The position numbers and the translations under genes are program-made. Below are positions 12,852-21,694 of a stretch of 63,928 nucleotides of DNA, one piece after another. Under the pieces are notes generated by a model. The model had not been told where the DNA came from and made no database searches. It was given only the letters and a program-made list of their open reading frames with translations. Each line of letters begins with the position of its first letter. Within the stretch, counting starts at the first letter, position 1. The stretch covers positions 1-63,928 of IMG/VR virus record IMGVR_UViG_3300012147_000014; one strand, 5' to 3'. This DNA is from a virus (lineage: Duplodnaviria > Caudoviricetes).

Positions 12852-13106
12852 ATGAAAAGAGCCCTGATACTTCTATTCCTTTCCATTGCTCTAGTTTTAG
12901 GCACGGCCTGCACAAAAGAGCCGACCGGCTACGAAACTAAGATACATTTTGTCGTCGATAACGATTACTTAACGAACAAGAACTTTGAAGACTTGATGGT
13001 CGACAACTGGGAAGTTATCAATGTTCGTCGCGCGACCTCGACACGCTTTGGCCCGAATGAACGGTGGGGCAACGAATACACCATGCGAAAGGCTACCTAT
13101 GACTAA
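12852..13106 (+). CDS. small lipoprotein, possible superinfection-exclusion moron
   Basis: signal peptide with lipobox-like LGTAC; directly follows repressor. Confidence 0.55.
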   Translation: MKRALILLFLSIALVLGTACTKEPTGYETKIHFVVDNDYLTNKNFEDLMVDNWEVINVRRATSTRFGPNERWGNEYTMRKATYD

Positions 13107-14242
13107 ACCTTAGCCAGCTCCGACCGCAAGTGCTCGATCCTGACATGGGTATAGCCTCGGTTAATTGACTTGTCTGAGTGGCCGACGAGCGCCATGCGAT
13201 CAACCTCAGAGACCCCGACCTCATTGAGCGCCGTGCTCAGTGCATGCCTGAACGAGTGAAACGAGTATTTGCTCTGCGTCCGGCCAGGCTGCCCCTTTAT
13301 GTATGGCTGCTCAATTCCGATCGCGGGCAAGATAGTCATCCGAAACACATGAGGAAAGCCTGCTGTGCCTGTCTGGGGCAGTCGCGATAGCTCTGGAAGG
13401 ACATAGCTACCCTTGAGCCTGCGGAACCACCAGCGTAGATGTCGCTCAAGCCTCGGGTGTATCGGCACCGCAAATAAGTCACGATTCTTTAGGCGAGGAA
13501 ATCGTATCACCGACTGCTCAAAGTCGACCGCAGCACGAGACAACTCTCGGCAGTCACGATCACGTTGACCAGTATAATATCCGATCAAGAATAGTATGCG
13601 CCACTCCGCGGTGTTTGTTCGTAGAAGCGCCTCCAGATGCTCGCGAGTGAATGGCACCTTCACGCTCGCATTTCGGTTCACTTTCACAGGCGTCAGTCCG
13701 ACGAACGGATTCTCGATCAAGACACCCTGAGCCAGCGCTTCACGGAACGCAGATTTCAGGAATACAACTTGATTCTTGATTGTGGCCGGAGCGGCACCTT
13801 TGACGAGTCGATCATCACGCCACTGAGCCAGCGCCGCCGTATCGATGAACGCCATAGGCCTGCTGGCCGCAGAACCCATGCCTACCAAAAATTGGTTGAT
13901 GTATTCGCGGTAACGCTTCCGGGTGCCCGCAACTACGTGCTTGGTGTTGACCGCGTAGAACCGGTCAAGGAATTCACGGGTGCTCGACGGATTGACTAGC
14001 GATCGCATGCCAGCCGCGCCCGCTATCTCGTCAAGGAGCGAAAGGACACGCTGACGAGTGAGTAGACCCCTCTTAGCGAGATTACCAGCCTGCTCAAGCC
14101 GTAAAGCAATCTGTAACGCTTCATTCTGATACTCCTTGGATTTACTCGTAAACCCTGTCGATACCTGCTTCCGCTTACCATTTGGTAGCGAGTAGCACGC
14201 CACCCAGCAATTTCGGTCATTTCTCCATCTTACACTTGCCAT
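13103..14242 (-). CDS. int: tyrosine integrase
   Basis: YTGQR, HSFRH, LVGH, GYTH catalytic set; ATG at 14242 (ORF track extends to 14305). Confidence 0.92.
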   Translation of the reverse strand: MASVRWRNDRNCWVACYSLPNGKRKQVSTGFTSKSKEYQNEALQIALRLEQAGNLAKRGLLTRQRVLSLLDEIAGAAGMRSLVNPSSTREFLDRFYAVNTKHVVAGTRKRYREYINQFLVGMGSAASRPMAFIDTAALAQWRDDRLVKGAAPATIKNQVVFLKSAFREALAQGVLIENPFVGLTPVKVNRNASVKVPFTREHLEALLRTNTAEWRILFLIGYYTGQRDRDCRELSRAAVDFEQSVIRFPRLKNRDLFAVPIHPRLERHLRWWFRRLKGSYVLPELSRLPQTGTAGFPHVFRMTILPAIGIEQPYIKGQPGRTQSKYSFHSFRHALSTALNEVGVSEVDRMALVGHSDKSINRGYTHVRIEHLRSELAKV

Positions 14243-14349
14243 AGGCAGAAACTGCGCCCACAAATTCGCCCACGCAACATTATTCACATTACTCGCATTG
14301 CGCACTTTTCTTATTAAAAAATACGTAATTGAAGTGTTTTTAGGTCAAT

Positions 14350-16993: not shown

Positions 16994-17545
16994 TTACCAG
17001 CTGATTGCGGCGATTTGATCGGCAGTGGTGGCTGCTTCCACGGCTTCGAGTTTTGCGCCCTCAATTGCAAATGCGGTAACTTTGCGGACAACACCCTCAT
17101 TGAGCGCTAGGGCGAACTGTTCGCGGCTTAGATCACGGCGAACACCATCTGCGCATTTGTAACCAGCAAAGATTTCCTTTGGAGCTAACATTTGGAGCAT
17201 CATTTGAATGTCGATCTGAGTCTGTACATCTGTGTGAAACGGAACGCCAAAGCTCGTCATTAGCGTCCCTTGCCAAGCTGCGTCGCGCTCTTGTTTAAGC
17301 GCTTGAATCTTTTCGAGCTTTTGCTCGGCTAGTGTCAACGCTGCCACTCTGTCGAGTTCGCGCTTTTCGAGTAGTGTCATAAGCTCACCTTCAACTAGGA
17401 ACACAGGCTTCTGCATGGATTCAAAATCAGTTGCTTGTTGATTACTAATCTCCACAGCTTCCAAATCCTCTAGTAGATTTTGCGGTTGAGTGTCGTTAAT
17501 TCGGCGGATGCGTCTGCGCTCGATGTTTACAATGGCGTATTTCAT
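16994..17545 (-). CDS. DUF4376-like tail fibre-associated protein
   Basis: LKQERD...VEAATTADQIAAISW C-terminus. Confidence 0.65.
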   Translation of the reverse strand: MKYAIVNIERRRIRRINDTQPQNLLEDLEAVEISNQQATDFESMQKPVFLVEGELMTLLEKRELDRVAALTLAEQKLEKIQALKQERDAAWQGTLMTSFGVPFHTDVQTQIDIQMMLQMLAPKEIFAGYKCADGVRRDLSREQFALALNEGVVRKVTAFAIEGAKLEAVEAATTADQIAAISW

Positions 17546-18339
17546 AGTTCTTGAATCCAGTTGAATTTTTGGTTGATTTGCTCAGAGAGATTGCGGCCTA
17601 GTGTGTCGTGCCAGTCGGGGACGAGTGGTTTGACTTCGGGTCGTATGACATGATCCCCATAAGGGAACCCCACATCATGTTCTTGTGTGTATTGCTGCAC
17701 GTTCTTGGCGTCGTGGATGACTGATTCTTCGCCTAGGTAATCCCAGACCTTGAGCATGGTGCCTTGTGGGTCAGTTGTTAAATCTTCTGCGTGCACGAAG
17801 TGCAGGCGGTCTTTGAATCTTAGGGCTTCATGCAACCGTTCGATGGCGATACCAATTGGTGGGCTTGAGAGCCAGCCATTAACGCGCTTCTCGATGGTTG
17901 TCCAGTTGGCTGGGTTGGCTTTTTCGATGCCGTTAAATACTTCGGGGTGTTGACGGCGTTTCTTTTCAAAGCTGCTAAGGATTGCCCGAACATCACGCAC
18001 TGGAACAATGACTTTAGCATCTGGCCATATCTTGAAGAGTTGATCCAAGTGACCTACCCACGAGCGGCATTTGTCGACCACGACAGGTCGGTCGGTTAGG
18101 GAGTTAAAAGCGTTCTCGCAGCCCGCCTTGACGTAATCAAGATACATTGGCTCAAGGACATTCTGCATGTCTGTGGCCTTTGCCTCCTCGGTTTGAAATA
18201 CTTGCCTAGCTATATAACCAATCTCATGGAGTGCGCTGGTTGGTGTGCTGTGGACGCGGGGATTCTGGGCGAGTAGTTGCATTAGCAGGGTGCTACAAGC
18301 GCGGGGTAAACCGCTTACGAAGTGTAATTGTTTAGCCAT
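17542..18339 (-). CDS. sulfotransferase family protein
   Basis: FVSGLPRACSTLL PAPS loop, VVVDK, VRDVRAILSS. Confidence 0.85.
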   Translation of the reverse strand: MAKQLHFVSGLPRACSTLLMQLLAQNPRVHSTPTSALHEIGYIARQVFQTEEAKATDMQNVLEPMYLDYVKAGCENAFNSLTDRPVVVDKCRSWVGHLDQLFKIWPDAKVIVPVRDVRAILSSFEKKRRQHPEVFNGIEKANPANWTTIEKRVNGWLSSPPIGIAIERLHEALRFKDRLHFVHAEDLTTDPQGTMLKVWDYLGEESVIHDAKNVQQYTQEHDVGFPYGDHVIRPEVKPLVPDWHDTLGRNLSEQINQKFNWIQEL

Positions 18340-18341
18340 GA

Positions 18342-20633
18342 TTATAGTTTGACGACATCAACGCTGGTGTTACCGCCGATTGTTAGCCCCGTTCCTGCTG
18401 TCCATGAATCCTTAACGGGTTGTGCCGCGTCCACTGGAATCGTGATCACCAGTGACGCATTCGTCCCTGACAACATGTTGGACGCTGAATCAATAACTGT
18501 TTTGTTGATATAGCAATCAATGGACGTTAGAGCGCTGCAATCACGGAACGCAGAGCTGCCGATTGACGTGACAGAGTCGCCAATCGTGACACTCGTTAGA
18601 CCGCTGCAAAAAAGGAACGCATAGCTGCCGATTGTCGTGACAGAGTCGGGAATCGTGACACTCGTTAGACCGCTGCAAAAAAGGAACGCAGAGCTGCCGA
18701 TTGTCGTGACAGAGTCGGGAATCGTGACACTCGTTAGAGCGCTGCAATCACGGAACGCAGAGCTGCCGATTGACGTGACAGAGTCGCCAATCGTGACACT
18801 CGTTAGACCGCTGCAATAACTGAACGCATAGCTGCCGATTGACGTGACAGAGTCGGGAATCGTGACACTCGTTAGAGCGCTGCAATCATAGAACGCAGAG
18901 CTGCCGATTGACGTGACAGAGTCGGGAATCGTGACACTCGTTAGAGCGCTGCAATCACGGAACGCAGAGCTGCCGATTGTTAGTAGTCCCTGGTTTAAAG
19001 TGACAGACTCAAGGCTTAGACTAGATTTAAACGCATCTGTTCCGAGCGATGTCACTGATCTACCGATTGAGGCATGTTCAACATTCGAGGGCGTGTCACC
19101 CGCTACAAGTTCTCCAATTACGAGCTTACTGGTGACAGCCCCCGTAGTCGTTGCGGAAAAGAGCGTCTCTTGGAGACCGCTATGCGCATCCACTCCGAGC
19201 TTAATCATCGCAGGCGACATGCTGCGGATAGCCGCCTCGGTGCCTGCGATGATTTCGGCGTTGGTGGCGGTGACGCCCGAAACAAGTGCCTGCCAATACT
19301 TGTTTGAGTCGTCGTCGGGATGCACAACTTGAGGAGATTCAGCCGGCCGGCTGGCTGAGGTTTCCAAGACCCACCAGCGCGACACTACGGATGCCCCTAT
19401 TACGATACGAGGAAGAACGACCACGGAGCCGACTGCGAGGGTTGCGGCCACTATGGAGTCGAGGTCGGTGCCTGCGCCGCCCGTGAGCCCAGTGATGGCA
19501 GAAAGTGGGCGGGCGTACCGCTGATCGCCTACGGACTGCGCGACCAATGGTGACCCCGAGGTGTCGCTCGAGATATTCTCTCCAAGCCCGTCGTTCACGA
19601 TCTCGCAATCGTACCGGTACGATGTCGCGTTCCCGTCAGCGTCTTTGATCTCGATCTCAAGGTAAGCGAAGGCTATTCCGTTTTCGACAGCATTGGCGTC
19701 TAGGTAGTTTTGAACTGCTGCGCGACGAATCGAAAGGCGGCCGGTCTTACCCTCGTAAGAGAGAAGGCCGGTCGCGCTACCCGTCATTTCAGGTTGATTG
19801 GCAAGGGCTAGATCGCCAATAAACTCAATAAGCCAGGAGCCGGATGCGACCTTGGTGACGATCACCGCAGCGTCCGCAATGTTGGAGAGTGCTATAAGGG
19901 CAGCCTGGACGGTTGCGGCGGTGGCGTCGTAGCTGATACTCGCGGTAGTCTGGCCATCGAAGCTCAAAGTAAAGTTACCACTGCGCGGAAAAGGGGACAG
20001 GGAAACTTTTTGCACCTCATTCACGGAGCCGGATCCTGCCTGAACAGTCGCGACGACGACTGCCGCAGCCGGAATGTCTGCCCAGGTGGCTTGCTCGGCA
20101 AGCGCAGCCTGTTTAATGCGAAGATATTGCACGCTGGATGAGTCAGCGTCACCGACATTCTCCTCGTGAATTTGAGCTTCACCTGAAGGTAAAATCAGTT
20201 CGGCATTCACCCCGAGCAAACTTCGGGTGCCGGGGTCGTCAAATTTGATTCGCCATGGCCCGCCCGCCTCGCCCGTAACTGTAACGTCTCCGGCGGTAGC
20301 GATTGATGCGAGTCCATTGATCGCAGTCTCGAGAGCCGCCGCAGTGACGCTATAGGGAAGGGCGGCAGTTTCGTTGCCCCCAAATCCAAGGGTGAAGGTT
20401 CCCCCCGTGACAGCTTGATCGGGATTAACGATGCCGACCCGCATACTTCCGCCTGATGGAAAGGAAATGGGATCAAACCCCGCATTGGCCTCTTCGGAAG
20501 TCTTCTTGAGCTGGAGGTTGATCGAGGGGTTGTCGCCCTGGAAAAACCGGAAACCGGATAGCATCAAAGTAGTGTCGAGACGTTGATGTATCGAACGTGA
20601 AGTTTGGTCTAGCCACCAGTTGTAATCCGCCAT
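18342..20633 (-). CDS. tail fibre/receptor-binding protein with C-terminal BspA-type LRRs
   Basis: GGTFTL...TAALPY repeated domains; six 23-aa LTSVTIPDSVTSIGxxAF repeats. Confidence 0.8.
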   Translation of the reverse strand: MADYNWWLDQTSRSIHQRLDTTLMLSGFRFFQGDNPSINLQLKKTSEEANAGFDPISFPSGGSMRVGIVNPDQAVTGGTFTLGFGGNETAALPYSVTAAALETAINGLASIATAGDVTVTGEAGGPWRIKFDDPGTRSLLGVNAELILPSGEAQIHEENVGDADSSSVQYLRIKQAALAEQATWADIPAAAVVVATVQAGSGSVNEVQKVSLSPFPRSGNFTLSFDGQTTASISYDATAATVQAALIALSNIADAAVIVTKVASGSWLIEFIGDLALANQPEMTGSATGLLSYEGKTGRLSIRRAAVQNYLDANAVENGIAFAYLEIEIKDADGNATSYRYDCEIVNDGLGENISSDTSGSPLVAQSVGDQRYARPLSAITGLTGGAGTDLDSIVAATLAVGSVVVLPRIVIGASVVSRWWVLETSASRPAESPQVVHPDDDSNKYWQALVSGVTATNAEIIAGTEAAIRSMSPAMIKLGVDAHSGLQETLFSATTTGAVTSKLVIGELVAGDTPSNVEHASIGRSVTSLGTDAFKSSLSLESVTLNQGLLTIGSSAFRDCSALTSVTIPDSVTSIGSSAFYDCSALTSVTIPDSVTSIGSYAFSYCSGLTSVTIGDSVTSIGSSAFRDCSALTSVTIPDSVTTIGSSAFLFCSGLTSVTIPDSVTTIGSYAFLFCSGLTSVTIGDSVTSIGSSAFRDCSALTSIDCYINKTVIDSASNMLSGTNASLVITIPVDAAQPVKDSWTAGTGLTIGGNTSVDVVKL
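18525..18980. repeat. 69-bp tandem repeats encoding LRR units
   Basis: near-identical DNA units, e.g. GTGACAGAGTCGGGAATCGTGACACTCGTTAGA. Confidence 0.9.
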
Positions 20634-20666
20634 AGATGGGGGCGAGTGTCAACGGCAGGAAAGGGG

Positions 20667-20946
20667 TCAACCACATCGACACCCTCTTTGAGCTGGCCTC
20701 TCGGCGCATTGTGTTATCGCGTGGGCTGTTTATCCCGCGCTTCTGCATGTTGCCATGCAGTTCAGACTATCTCTTCGGCGGCTAGGCCGTGGGGCGCTCG
20801 TGGGTAGATTACTGGCCGTTCTGGCCTCGCTACCTAGTCGTTGCACCTTCAATCGCATTCCTGCGAAAGCTTGGCTCAGGATTGTCCGCGTGGGAGTTTC
20901 CCTGAGTTCACCCCATAATGCCCGATGTCGATGTCGATGTGGTTGA
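20667..20946 (-). ncRNA. group I ribozyme core, intergenic, closed by a 15-bp stem
   Basis: P AACTCAGGGAAA, Q AATCCTGAGC, R GTGCAACGACTA, S AAGAGATAGTCT; P3, P4, P6, P7, P7.1, P8, P9 pairings visible. Confidence 0.8.
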
Positions 20947-20953
20947 AAAATCA

Positions 20954-21694
20954 TTAGTAGAGATAGGGTAGATAGTAAACGTCGCAGTCCTTGACAGCTC
21001 GTAATTCTGTCAGCCGTCCTGAAAGTCCTTGCGATGGCCTGTCCTCTCCGTCGTGGAACTCAGTTGCTCCACCATCATACCCTGCCCACATCCATGCGAT
21101 GATGCAGAGGTTCCACACTTGCGGGAGGGCGGCGAGCGCGGAAAGGCTAGTGCTTTTGCTAACGAGAAATGCCTCTAGCCCCGTTTCAATATTGCTGAGG
21201 TCGGTCGTAGTCGGCACCCAGAAGAACCCTGAATCCTCTGCGGCAGGCAACCACCCGCAGGTCTTCCCCGTAAAAGGGAAGCCCGTGCCCACGCTTACGC
21301 CTCTATAATCATATAGGTGGTAAGGGACTTCTTCGGATGGGAATCTGTATCGAGTAAACGCGCTATCTAGATCGACTGATCCACCGCTCGTCCGAATGCC
21401 GTAGGCGTCGCTTACATGGTAGCTGCCAAGATCGCCGAACCGCTTAGTCTTATTGATCGTTGGCGTGCCGCTCACCGTGAAGGGATCAAGGTTGATGTCA
21501 TTCCACCTCAACATTCGCGTGCAGTAATGCATATACTTCTGCACGGCGTTACCCGCGTTGCCGATAGATTCTTTTTGGAAAAACCCGTTGGGGTTGTCTT
21601 GCACACCATCGGCCTGCGAGACATAAGGTAGGCCAGGCACGTAGCAAGTCGGCGCGTCGGAATCGTCTTTATTGTTGGGTAGCCAGATTGCCAT
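20954..21694 (-). CDS. tail-region hypothetical protein
   Basis: position in tail operon. Confidence 0.6.
   Translation of the reverse strand: MAIWLPNNKDDSDAPTCYVPGLPYVSQADGVQDNPNGFFQKESIGNAGNAVQKYMHYCTRMLRWNDINLDPFTVSGTPTINKTKRFGDLGSYHVSDAYGIRTSGGSVDLDSAFTRYRFPSEEVPYHLYDYRGVSVGTGFPFTGKTCGWLPAAEDSGFFWVPTTTDLSNIETGLEAFLVSKSTSLSALAALPQVWNLCIIAWMWAGYDGGATEFHDGEDRPSQGLSGRLTELRAVKDCDVYYLPYLY

What the first reader, a model, noticed from the sequence alone, without database searches (positions are those of the whole stretch)
20667..20946. Intergenic group I ribozyme core with no visible P1, clamped by a perfect 15-bp stem
Seen on the - strand: P (20897-20908), Q (20874-20883), R (20835-20846) and S (20764-20775) elements. 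Also P3 GGGGTG/CGCCCC, P4 CTCAGG/CCTGAG, P7 GACTA/TAGTC, a P7.1-type GGTAG/CTACC insert, P9 with a GCAA loop, and a candidate omega-G near 20707. It lies after the stop of 20954-21694, and an in-frame TGA precedes the tail-fibre ATG, so it interrupts no evident gene. The ends pair (20667-20681 with 20932-20946), and I find no P1/IGS 5' of P3. Inference: a stand-alone, possibly permuted or trans-acting ribozyme that cleaves, circularises or processes the late mRNA ahead of the tail-fibre gene.
Basis: partly seen in the sequence, partly recalled or inferred. Interest (0 to 1): 0.8.

Follow-up and report, generated by a model that had tools for sequence, protein, structure and literature searches.

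The report
Permuted group I ribozyme in phage 3' UTR
A real, conserved self-splicing-type (group I) RNA enzyme sits just after a phage structural gene without interrupting any gene, and its parts are arranged in a rotated order that should cut the messenger RNA and release a tiny RNA circle instead of splicing.

Summary
Rfam finds one group I ribozyme in the window (20743-21005, minus strand, 59.4 bits). All the listed core helices are there, and so is the perfect 15-bp end-to-end stem.

The upstream 246-aa gene ends at its native stop, so no gene is interrupted. Every relative of that gene with downstream DNA carries the same ribozyme at the same place: 6 of 6 viral contigs and 19 of 19 metagenome contigs. 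The clamp and core helices covary.

Its best partner lies downstream of the omega-G (G20707): GCUC at 20693-20690, with a G.U wobble. The same layout recurs in unrelated gene contexts. One locus has two such ribozymes in tandem between convergent genes.

The 3' splice site therefore lies upstream of the 5'-splice-site-like U|C. This is a naturally permuted (back-splicing) topology. Predicted products are a message ending at omega-G, a downstream RNA starting with the added G, and a 16-nt circle (15-527 nt in relatives).

The chemistry is inferred, not shown. I found no RNA data and no paper describing this in phages.

The parts
20954..21694 (-). Upstream gene, 246 aa (P0001). Family of unknown function in the late structural module. 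Its native stop TAA is at 20956-20954.
   Evidence: ORF list. Translation. 14 homologues of 231-289 aa all end at the same C-terminal motif. No Pfam or PHROG hit.
20932..20946 (-). Clamp helix, 5' strand. It starts 7 nt after the stop codon.
   Evidence: Perfect 15-nt inverted repeat I6. The homologous helix in relatives has other sequences.
20920..20923 (-). IGS-like GGGC, five nt 5' of P3. G20922 is the wobble G.
   Evidence: Sequence. It aligns with the GGGCC of relatives. It occupies the same place as the IGS of the conventional Aes508 DNA polymerase intron, read by eye.
20743..20914 (-). Catalytic core P3-P9 of subgroup IA type: P3, P4, P5, P6/6a, P7, P7.1/7.1a, P8 and P9 (GCAA loop).
   Evidence: RF00028, 59.4 bits. 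RNAalifold consensus and pair counts.
20719..20740 (-). P9.1 hairpin, followed by the conserved GAUAACA motif (20718-20712).
   Evidence: Alignment columns 231-252 show 5 pairs with changes on both sides. The motif is shared with 21 conventional introns.
20707..20707 (-). Omega-G. The 3'-splice-site bond is G20707|C20706.
   Evidence: Homology to conventional introns that end CGAUAACA-N(3-6)-UG|exon 2. The junction in L056/L078 was checked by reading frame by eye.
20691..20706 (-). 16-nt 'mini-exon' between omega-G and the wobble U. This is the predicted circular product.
   Evidence: Coordinates. The segment is also 16 nt in L004 and L014, and 15-527 nt in other members.
20690..20693 (-). Substrate strand GCUC of the P1-like helix. 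It pairs with 20923-20920. The predicted cleaved bond is U20691|C20690.
   Evidence: It aligns with GGCUC|AA of relatives. In 10 of 13 elements the homologous helix is the top-scoring pairing, and it always carries the G.U. In the window itself it has only 4 bp and is not among the top 3.
20667..20681 (-). Clamp helix, 3' strand.
18342..20633 (-). Downstream gene, 763 aa. It has BspA-type leucine-rich repeats and tail-like segments. It is a neighbour, not part of the conserved module.
   Evidence: Pfam LRR_5 at 4e-59, and tail PHROGs. Downstream genes differ in relatives.

Best explanation
The element is a catalytically intact group I (IA-type) ribozyme in the 3' untranslated region of a late structural gene. 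Its connectivity is circularly permuted at the P1 loop.

The guide strand (GGGC, 20923-20920) sits directly 5' of P3, as in conventional introns that lack P2. The strand it pairs with (GCUC, 20693-20690, with G20922.U20691 as the reactive wobble) lies 16 nt downstream of the omega-G (G20707). The 15-bp clamp (20946-20932 with 20681-20667) extends the opened P1 loop and holds the two ends together.

With the 3' splice site upstream of the 5'-splice-site-like bond, ordinary two-step group I chemistry would run as back-splicing:
1. Free guanosine or GTP attacks U20691|C20690.
2. The freed U-3'OH attacks G20707|C20706.

Predicted products:
- the upstream mRNA, ending in the folded ribozyme at omega-G;
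- a downstream RNA that begins with the added G;
- a circular 16-nt mini-exon.

My guess at the biological role is RNA-level 3'-end formation and separation of the transcript from what lies downstream.

What is shown: the core, its conservation, its position, the clamp, and the pairing pattern. What is inferred: catalysis, the two cleavage sites, the circle, and the role.
For: 1. The core is real: RF00028 at 59.4 bits in the window and 65.8-92.9 bits in relatives.

2. It is not in a gene. The upstream protein aligns to the last residue of 14 homologues. The segment after omega-G is 15, 16, 18, 22, 25, 60, 64, 97 or 527 nt in different members, so there is no conserved reading frame.

3. The linkage is obligate. 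6 of 6 IMG/VR loci and 19 of 20 metagenome loci hold it right after the stop. The 20th locus, L010, ends inside the gene.

4. The structure covaries. On 12 sequences, 94.9% of cells are paired against 87.3% in shuffles. 39 of 83 pairs change on both sides. 0 of 500 shuffles reach this. Slid controls give 32-42%. RNAalifold finds the clamp on its own.

5. Omega-G is fixed by homology. 21 conventional introns share the P9.1-CGAUAACA motif and end N(3-6)-UG|exon 2.

6. The guide-like strand occupies the IGS position of the conventional Aes508 intron.

7. In an unconstrained search, the P1-like helix is the best pairing between the 11 nt before P3 and the region after omega-G in 10 of 13 elements. 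In every one of those, G.U is the second pair from the 5' end of the guide strand (the first in L003). The inner pairs are wholly different between lineages: GGGCCUU/AAGGCUC, GGGCUU/AAGCUC, GGAUAG/CUAUUC, GGCCC/GGGUC, UGCCCGU/GUGGGUA, GGCAA/UUGCU.

8. The same layout occurs in other gene contexts: L243 after a gene of 1785 aa or more, and L235 after an unrelated 228-aa gene. In L235 two such ribozymes lie in tandem between convergent genes, so nothing on that strand is left to splice into.

9. Conventional relatives with the same P7.1 signature do have a local P1 plus a P2 hairpin.
Against: - No RNA data exist, so no cleavage, G-addition or circle has been seen.
- In the window itself the P1-like helix has only 4 bp and is not among the three best pairings. 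A competing GCAUU/AAUGC pairing spans omega-G.
- The window's Rfam score (59.4 bits) is the lowest of the family, and its P5 is weak.
- On the 12-sequence alignment the P1-like helix taken alone is weakly supported. It is 86.7% paired against 81.8% in shuffles (3 of 500 reach it), and its changes on both sides are not significant (148 of 500).
- Shuffles of each element's own 45-nt region give p = 0.012-0.52 per element.
- With 165-nt search regions, cognate and non-cognate strands are not separated.
- A 15-16-nt circle is sterically demanding, so the second step may not occur.
- L017 lacks a long clamp (by eye), so the clamp is not universal.
- The biological role is a guess.
Confidence: 0.55

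Rival explanations
1. It is a domesticated, non-catalytic structured RNA. The group I fold, closed by the clamp, only serves as a bulky 3'-UTR structure that blocks 3' exonucleases or helps termination. The GGGC/GCUC contact is a tertiary pseudoknot with no chemistry.
For: The position at the 3' end of a transcription unit is conserved. Several relatives have a T-run right after the clamp 3' strand. The scan finds no intrinsic terminator on the ribozyme's strand after it in the window, L014 or L235. Statistical support for the P1-like helix is moderate.
Against: P7, J8/7, J6/7 and the omega-G context stay at the level of active introns: 80-101 bits in relatives. The G.U wobble is kept at the same pair while all neighbouring pairs change between lineages. 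A purely structural role does not need these features.
Confidence: 0.15
2. It is a one-step ribozyme of the GIR1 / lariat-capping kind or a hydrolytic kind. The clamp corresponds to DP2 and GGGC/GCUC to P10. The only reaction is at the bond after omega-G (hydrolysis or branching). It cuts the message there and leaves the downstream RNA with a modified or plain 5' end.
For: GIR1 lacks 5' and 3' splice sites. Its active state needs DP2 and P10, which are formed by sequences 5' and 3' of the core (PMC3679873, passages read). That is the same overall topology. In L017 and L235 Rz1 the stem after the core includes omega-G itself (by eye). Hydrolysis at the 3' splice site is a known group I side reaction (PMC3679873).
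Against: No Rfam family other than RF00028 matches, even at E<=10. I recall a separate Rfam GIR1 model but did not verify it. The core is canonical rather than rearranged. The three nucleotides after omega-G are not conserved: CGC, CCU, AAC, AUC, ACU, CGU, CAG. A conserved G.U wobble is the hallmark of P1, not of P10.
Confidence: 0.15
3. It is a conventional cis-splicing intron whose P1 I failed to recognise, for example Rfam's P1 at about 21001-20983 inside the end of the upstream gene. It would join that gene to a short or long downstream exon.
For: The Rfam alignment covers model positions 1-253, including P1/P2. An ATG overlaps the stop (TAATGA at 20956-20951).
Against: Rfam's P1 carries non-canonical pairs and lies at non-homologous places in L004, L005 and L007. 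Splicing there would remove the most conserved C-terminal motif. The post-omega-G segment varies by lengths that are not multiples of 3, and it changes by RNA-type compensatory substitutions. In L235 no same-strand gene follows.
Confidence: 0.05
4. It is a trans-acting ribozyme whose guide strand targets another phage or host RNA.
For: The guide strand is exposed 5' of P3, as in engineered trans-cleaving forms (recalled, not seen).
Against: The guide has only 4-7 nt. A matching strand is always present in cis at a homologous place. No trans target was searched for.
Confidence: 0.03

Closest known systems
Conventional phage group I introns of subgroup IA (Rfam RF00028). Examples: the Aeromonas phage Aes508 DNA polymerase intron, and 21 IMG/VR introns that share the P9.1-CGAUAACA-omega-G end.
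   Same: The P3-P9 core, the P7.1 insert, the P9.1 and omega-G context, and a guide strand directly 5' of P3. DNA similarity is 77-91% over 43-98 bp of the core.
   Different: Conventional introns have a local P1 hairpin (and often P2), interrupt a gene, and ligate the flanking exons. Here the substrate strand lies after omega-G and no gene is interrupted.
Engineered permuted intron-exon (PIE) constructs, and the natural back-splicing group I intron of mushroom-coral mitochondria (Chi et al. 2019).
   Same: The 3' splice site lies upstream of the 5' splice site, so standard chemistry gives a circular exon.
   Different: PIE is man-made and usually opened in a peripheral loop (recalled; seen only in search listings). 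The coral case restores a protein-coding mRNA from misordered exons; I know it only from a passage in PMC8637638 and did not read the paper itself. Here the break is in the P1 loop, the 'exon' can be 15-16 nt and is non-coding, and the host is a phage 3' UTR.
[quoted passage not shown] 2021, PMC8637638).
   Same: A self-splicing ribozyme class found in a permuted order. It stands alone rather than interrupting an ORF, and it is predicted (and there shown) to make RNA circles (passages read).
   Different: A different ribozyme class and chemistry. Those were tested in vitro. This one was not.
GIR1 / lariat-capping ribozyme of twin-ribozyme introns.
   Same: It derives from group I, has no conventional P1 or splice sites, and its active fold depends on pairing between sequences 5' and 3' of the core (PMC3679873 and PMC4167309, passages read).
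   Different: GIR1 has a rearranged core and makes a 3-nt lariat. It is eukaryotic, nucleolar, and sits upstream of a homing endonuclease mRNA. Here the core is canonical, no other Rfam family matches, and a P1-type G.U is conserved.

Membership tests
Group I intron ribozyme (RF00028) | Covariance-model score above the curated gathering threshold over the P3-P9 core | tested here: met
   59.4 bits against a gathering score of 50. Relatives score 65.8-100.9 bits.
Group I intron ribozyme (RF00028) | P7 pseudoknot with flanking J6/7 and J8/7, and P3/P8 nesting | tested here: met
   P7 GACUA/UAGUC is invariant in 12 of 12 sequences. P3, P4, P6, P8 and P9 are 94-100% paired and show changes on both sides.
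Group I intron ribozyme (RF00028) | Local P1 hairpin: the 5' exon ending in U, paired to a guide strand just downstream | tested here: not met
   There is no complementary strand between the stop codon and P3. Rfam's P1 is inconsistent between relatives. A G.U-containing helix forms instead with a strand 3' of omega-G.
Group I intron ribozyme (RF00028) | Terminal omega-G at the 3' splice site | tested here: met
   G20707 aligns with the omega-G of conventional introns that share the CGAUAACA motif. It is invariant in the 12-sequence alignment.
Group I intron (as an intron) | Interrupts a gene, and its removal restores a continuous coding or RNA sequence | tested here: not met
   The upstream protein is complete. 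The post-omega-G segment has no conserved frame. L235 has a convergent gene downstream.
Subgroup IA | Extra P7.1(/P7.2) between P7 and P3' | tested here: met
   P7.1 and P7.1a are 100% paired, and 5 of their 9 pairs change on both sides.
Permuted (back-splicing) self-splicing ribozyme | The 3' splice site lies upstream of the 5' splice site on one transcript | tested here: met
   The order in sequence is omega-G 20707, then U20691|C20690. The same order holds in 13 of 13 elements examined. The sites are inferred from homology and pairing, not mapped.
Permuted (back-splicing) self-splicing ribozyme | A circular exon and G-tagged 3' fragment are produced | not testable with these tools
   No RNA run holds the sequence.
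GIR1 / lariat-capping ribozyme | Match to the family model; rearranged core; conserved 3-nt lariat fold after omega-G | tested here: not met
   Only RF00028 is reported at E<=10. I recall a separate Rfam GIR1 model but did not verify it. The three nucleotides after omega-G vary between members.

The most novel reading that the evidence does not exclude
Aquatic phages carry a previously undescribed class of naturally permuted group I ribozymes in their 3' UTRs. These ribozymes back-splice. They act as RNA-level terminators or processing sites, and they also release covalently closed RNAs of 15 to more than 500 nt. The variable 'mini-exon' is a cargo slot: a 64-nt insert in L005, 97 nt in L003, and a 527-nt insert with two 28-29-nt tandem-repeat arrays in L023. 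The cargo would give stable circular decoy or sponge RNAs during infection.
Probability: 0.3. Interest if true: 0.9.

Novelty: new variant of a known kind. Interest (0 to 1): 0.8.

Why it matters
Group I ribozymes in bacteria and phages are known as introns inside tRNA, rRNA or protein genes. I also recall, without having checked it, one riboswitch-controlled 5'-UTR case.

This would be a conserved family with three unusual properties. It sits in 3' UTRs. It has lost the local P1. It presents its own downstream strand to the guide sequence. That would make it the group I counterpart of the permuted group II introns described in 2021, and a second example, after GIR1, of a group I fold recruited for something other than exon ligation.

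It gives a directly testable prediction: GTP-dependent cleavage at one named bond, and a tiny circle. It could explain how some phages end or cut late transcripts without protein factors. It may also offer compact natural scaffolds for making circular RNA.

Tried and rejected
- RNA evidence: the look-up of sequencing runs listed 14 runs, all DNA. No RNA holder is listed.
- Laying the contigs of 4 DNA runs on 20300-21400 gave no joint, so no ribozyme-less DNA variant was seen. Cover was partial.
- Prophage or host search with the protein family in genome contigs: 61 pattern matches, none a relative.
- The first IMG/VR scan with the single protein found nothing. The alignment was needed.
- Function of the 246-aa protein: no Pfam or PHROG hit. 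The AlphaFold2 model had mean pLDDT 51.9, so I did not search with it. The ESM Atlas gave nothing above 0.78. There is no homology to the 228-aa gene of L235.
- Statistics on the P1-like helix:
  - On alignment A2 alone the covariation is not significant.
  - 'Best helix' searches over 165-175-nt regions pick other helices in several members. Cognate and non-cognate strands are not separated.
  - One script used faulty anchors, and I discarded it.
Only 21 had a group I context, and all were conventional introns.
- The pattern CGATAACANNNTTGNNNTCGC gave 90 loci. Only 4 had a core, and all were already known.
- ARAGORN finds no tRNA or tmRNA gene in the L002 insert or in the window.
- The idea of a coding extension of the upstream gene through the element was rejected (see rivals).
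- A GIR1-type lariat was rejected, because the nucleotides after omega-G are not conserved.
- The paper PMC4040574 (crystal structure of the lariat-capping ribozyme) is not held.
- Five literature searches found no paper on a permuted or 3'-UTR group I ribozyme in phages. The library lacks most subscription journals. Supplements were not consulted.

Full report
**What is there**

The window is a complete 63.9-kb virus record. Its late module lies on the minus strand. It holds the terminase, portal, major head protein and several unnamed proteins. These are followed by a 246-aa gene (21694-20954), the feature itself, a 763-aa leucine-rich-repeat tail-like gene (20633-18342) and a sulfotransferase.

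Rfam finds exactly one RNA family in the window. It is the group I intron model at 21005-20743 on the minus strand, at 59.4 bits against a threshold of 50. Nothing else appears, even at E<=10 on 20600-21020.

The 15-bp perfect pairing of 20946-20932 with 20681-20667 is confirmed.

**It interrupts no gene**

The 246-aa protein has 16 database relatives. I aligned 14 of them, all 231-289 aa long. All 14 end at the same C-terminal motif as the window's protein, to the last residue.

The downstream gene is preceded by an in-frame TGA.

Rfam's alignment of model positions P1/P2 falls inside the coding 3' end. It has non-canonical pairs. In three relatives it lands at non-homologous places. I treat it as forced.

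**It is conserved and tied to the upstream gene**

I searched with the protein alignment.
- 6 of 6 IMG/VR loci carry an RF00028 hit (79.5-92.5 bits) that starts at or just before the stop codon. These loci are about 37-43% identical in protein.
- 19 of 20 metagenome loci scanned do the same (65.8-92.9 bits). The 20th, L010, ends inside the gene.
- Two further loci, L030 and L031, hold the core by motif.
- A DNA pattern for the family's 3' domain finds it in IMG/VR only on contigs already known from the protein search: 4 of 90 pattern loci.

The downstream genes differ between relatives. In 23 of 26 loci with downstream sequence, a TGnTATAAT-type promoter-like site lies between the element and the next gene. 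This count is by eye. The scan was run on L014 alone, where it gives TTTACT-16-TATAAT preceded by TG. The window has no such site.

So the conserved position is the 3' end of a transcription unit, not the front of the tail-fibre gene.

**Structure**

I aligned 12 distinct sequences, including the window.
- RNAalifold recovers the clamp, P3, P4, P5, P6/6a, P7.1/7.1a, P8, P9, P9.1 and a hairpin after omega-G.
- With P7 and the P1-like helix added, 94.9% of 994 cells are standard pairs, against 87.3% in shuffles.
- 39 of 83 pairs change on both sides.
- 0 of 500 shuffles reach any of the five measures.
- Slid controls give 32-42% paired.

The clamp has different sequences in different lineages: 17 bp in the window and in L004, 12-14 bp in the main clade, and 15 bp in L003. 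L022 differs from the main clade by a compensatory pair. One member, L017, has no long clamp (by eye).

**Omega-G**

A pattern for the P9.1-CGAUAACA motif retrieved 21 conventional introns with a group I context. They end CGAUAACA-N(3-6)-UG, followed by exon 2.

In L056 and L078 the reading frame across the junction places the 5' splice site after AUGGGU. That strand pairs to a local GCCCAU. Omega-G is then the G of AAAAUUG. This was read by eye.

**The missing P1**

Directly 5' of P3 the family has a conserved G-rich strand: GGGC at 20923-20920 in the window and GGGCC in most relatives.

In the conventional Aes508 DNA polymerase intron, the guide strand that pairs with the 5' exon end occupies exactly this position, followed by a short joiner and P3. 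That record annotates a group I intron, and Rfam scores it at 73.3 bits (the pairing was read by eye).

In the family there is no complementary strand upstream. I searched without constraints for the best helix between the 11 nt before P3 and the region after omega-G.

The top helix lies at a homologous place in 10 of 13 elements. It starts 17-26 nt after the conserved TAAC in short-exon members, inside the loop of the post-omega-G hairpin, and in most members it is followed by two or more A. Its second pair is always G.U, with the U on the downstream strand (the first pair in L003).

The inner pairs differ completely between lineages:
- GGGCCUU/AAGGCUC
- GGGCUU/AAGCUC
- GGAUAG/CUAUUC
- GGCCC/GGGUC
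- UGCCCGU/GUGGGUA
- GGCAA/UUGCU

A helix that keeps one G.U while everything around it changes is the signature of P1.

The weak points are these.
- In the window the helix is only GGGC/GCUC, and it is not among the top three.
- L022 ranks third and L005 second.
- Shuffles of each element's own region give p = 0.012-0.52.
- On the close-relative alignment the helix taken alone is not significantly covarying.
- Wider search windows do not discriminate.

**Topology and predicted chemistry**

The order on the RNA is: clamp 5' strand, guide strand, P3-P9.1, omega-G, a short segment, the U|C of the P1-like helix, then the clamp 3' strand. The 3' splice site therefore precedes the 5'-splice-site-like bond. 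This is a permuted intron-exon arrangement, opened in the P1 loop and closed by the clamp.

Standard group I chemistry (PMC3679873, passages read) would proceed in two steps:
1. Exogenous G attacks U20691|C20690.
2. The U-3'OH attacks G20707|C20706.

This would give an mRNA ending at omega-G, a G-tagged downstream RNA, and a circular 16-nt segment (20706-20691).

The segment is 15, 16, 18, 22, 25, 60, 64, 97 or 527 nt in other members. That rules out a conserved reading frame and shows a loop that tolerates insertions.

None of this chemistry has been observed.

**The layout is not confined to one gene family**

A pattern for the P7/P7.1 signature found 20 IMG/VR loci.
- Five are the known family.
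- Six are conventional introns with a local P1 (UGGCGU paired to GCGCC) and a P2 hairpin.
- Nine show the permuted layout in other contexts.

L243 follows a structural gene of at least 1785 aa (81.6 bits).

L235, with 7 identical copies in other samples, has two ribozymes in tandem (100.9 and 86.2 bits). They follow an unrelated 228-aa gene and end against the stop of a convergent portal gene. Each has its own guide strand, omega-G and downstream G.U partner, with segments of 15 and 25 nt.

With no same-strand gene downstream, exon ligation into a coding sequence is excluded there.

**Role**

This is inferred. No conventional intrinsic terminator is found on the ribozyme's strand after the element in the window, L014 or L235.

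The simplest role is RNA-level 3'-end formation. The ribozyme would cut read-through RNA off the late message and leave a compact fold at its 3' end.

Conservation of omega-G suggests the second step also matters. That is why I rank back-splicing above plain cleavage.

Three alternatives remain open and are scored as rivals: a purely structural element, a GIR1-like or hydrolytic one-step ribozyme, and a conventional intron.

**Comparison with what is known**

- The core is an ordinary phage IA group I ribozyme. DNA similarity to many phage introns is limited to the core.
- Natural permuted group II introns that stand alone and make circles are described in PMC8637638 (passages read).
- The same paper cites a coral mitochondrial group I intron removed by back-splicing (Chi et al. 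2019; I did not read it).
- GIR1 shows that a group I fold can lose its splice sites and depend on 5'/3' pairing (PMC3679873 and PMC4167309, passages read).
- Engineered PIE constructs and the riboswitch-controlled group I ribozyme of Clostridioides difficile are recalled, not checked.
- Five full-text searches found no report of a permuted or 3'-UTR group I ribozyme in phages. The library lacks most subscription journals.

**Verdict**

It is wrong about the absent guide strand and about the link to the tail-fibre gene.

I rate the element a new variant of a known kind. Interest is high. Confidence in the permuted, self-processing mechanism is moderate, at 0.55.

Noticed in passing
L002 4827-4892 (same in L031): A 65-nt insert in the P5 loop of the ribozyme scores as the tRNA-like domain of tmRNA (RF00023, 49.8 bits against a threshold of 47). 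It ends in CCACCA. ARAGORN calls no gene there.
   Followed up: partly
L023 1564-2090: The segment between omega-G and the G.U partner is 527 nt here, against 16 nt in close relatives. It holds two arrays of 28-29-nt tandem repeats, with 3.5-3.8 and 2.9 copies. The flanking stem, partner strand and clamp are intact.
   Followed up: partly
L235 8711-8216 (minus strand): Two group I ribozymes lie in tandem, about 50 nt apart, in the gap between a 228-aa gene and a convergent portal gene. The same stretch is found on 8 IMG/VR contigs from different samples.
   Followed up: yes
L014 2611-2638, and the equivalent place in most relatives: A conserved TATGATATAAT (extended -10 type) promoter-like site lies just downstream of the clamp, before the next gene. 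It is absent from the window, L017 and L022.
   Followed up: partly
window 20946-20921: The clamp 5' strand lies in a threefold CATCG(A/G) repeat, so the 3' strand could pair in two registers 6 nt apart. A GCAUU (20921-20917) / AAUGC (20710-20706) pairing that spans omega-G is also possible. Either could be a switch.
   Followed up: no
window 20730-20954 (minus strand): A 74-aa ORF starts at an ATG that overlaps the upstream stop (TAATGA) and reads straight through the ribozyme core. It is probably spurious.
   Followed up: no
window 17542-18339 and 13103-14305 (minus strand): A sulfotransferase-family gene lies directly after the leucine-rich-repeat tail-like gene (Pfam Sulfotransfer_3, 1.1e-18). 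An integrase (PHROG 1, 1.6e-42) suggests a temperate phage. No related prophage was found in the species-representative genomes.
   Followed up: no
L243 5389-5660: In this member a CUUUGAC strand just 5' of the guide strand can pair with GUCAAAAG. That overlaps the G.U partner strand, giving a mutually exclusive alternative to the P1-like helix (by eye).
   Followed up: no
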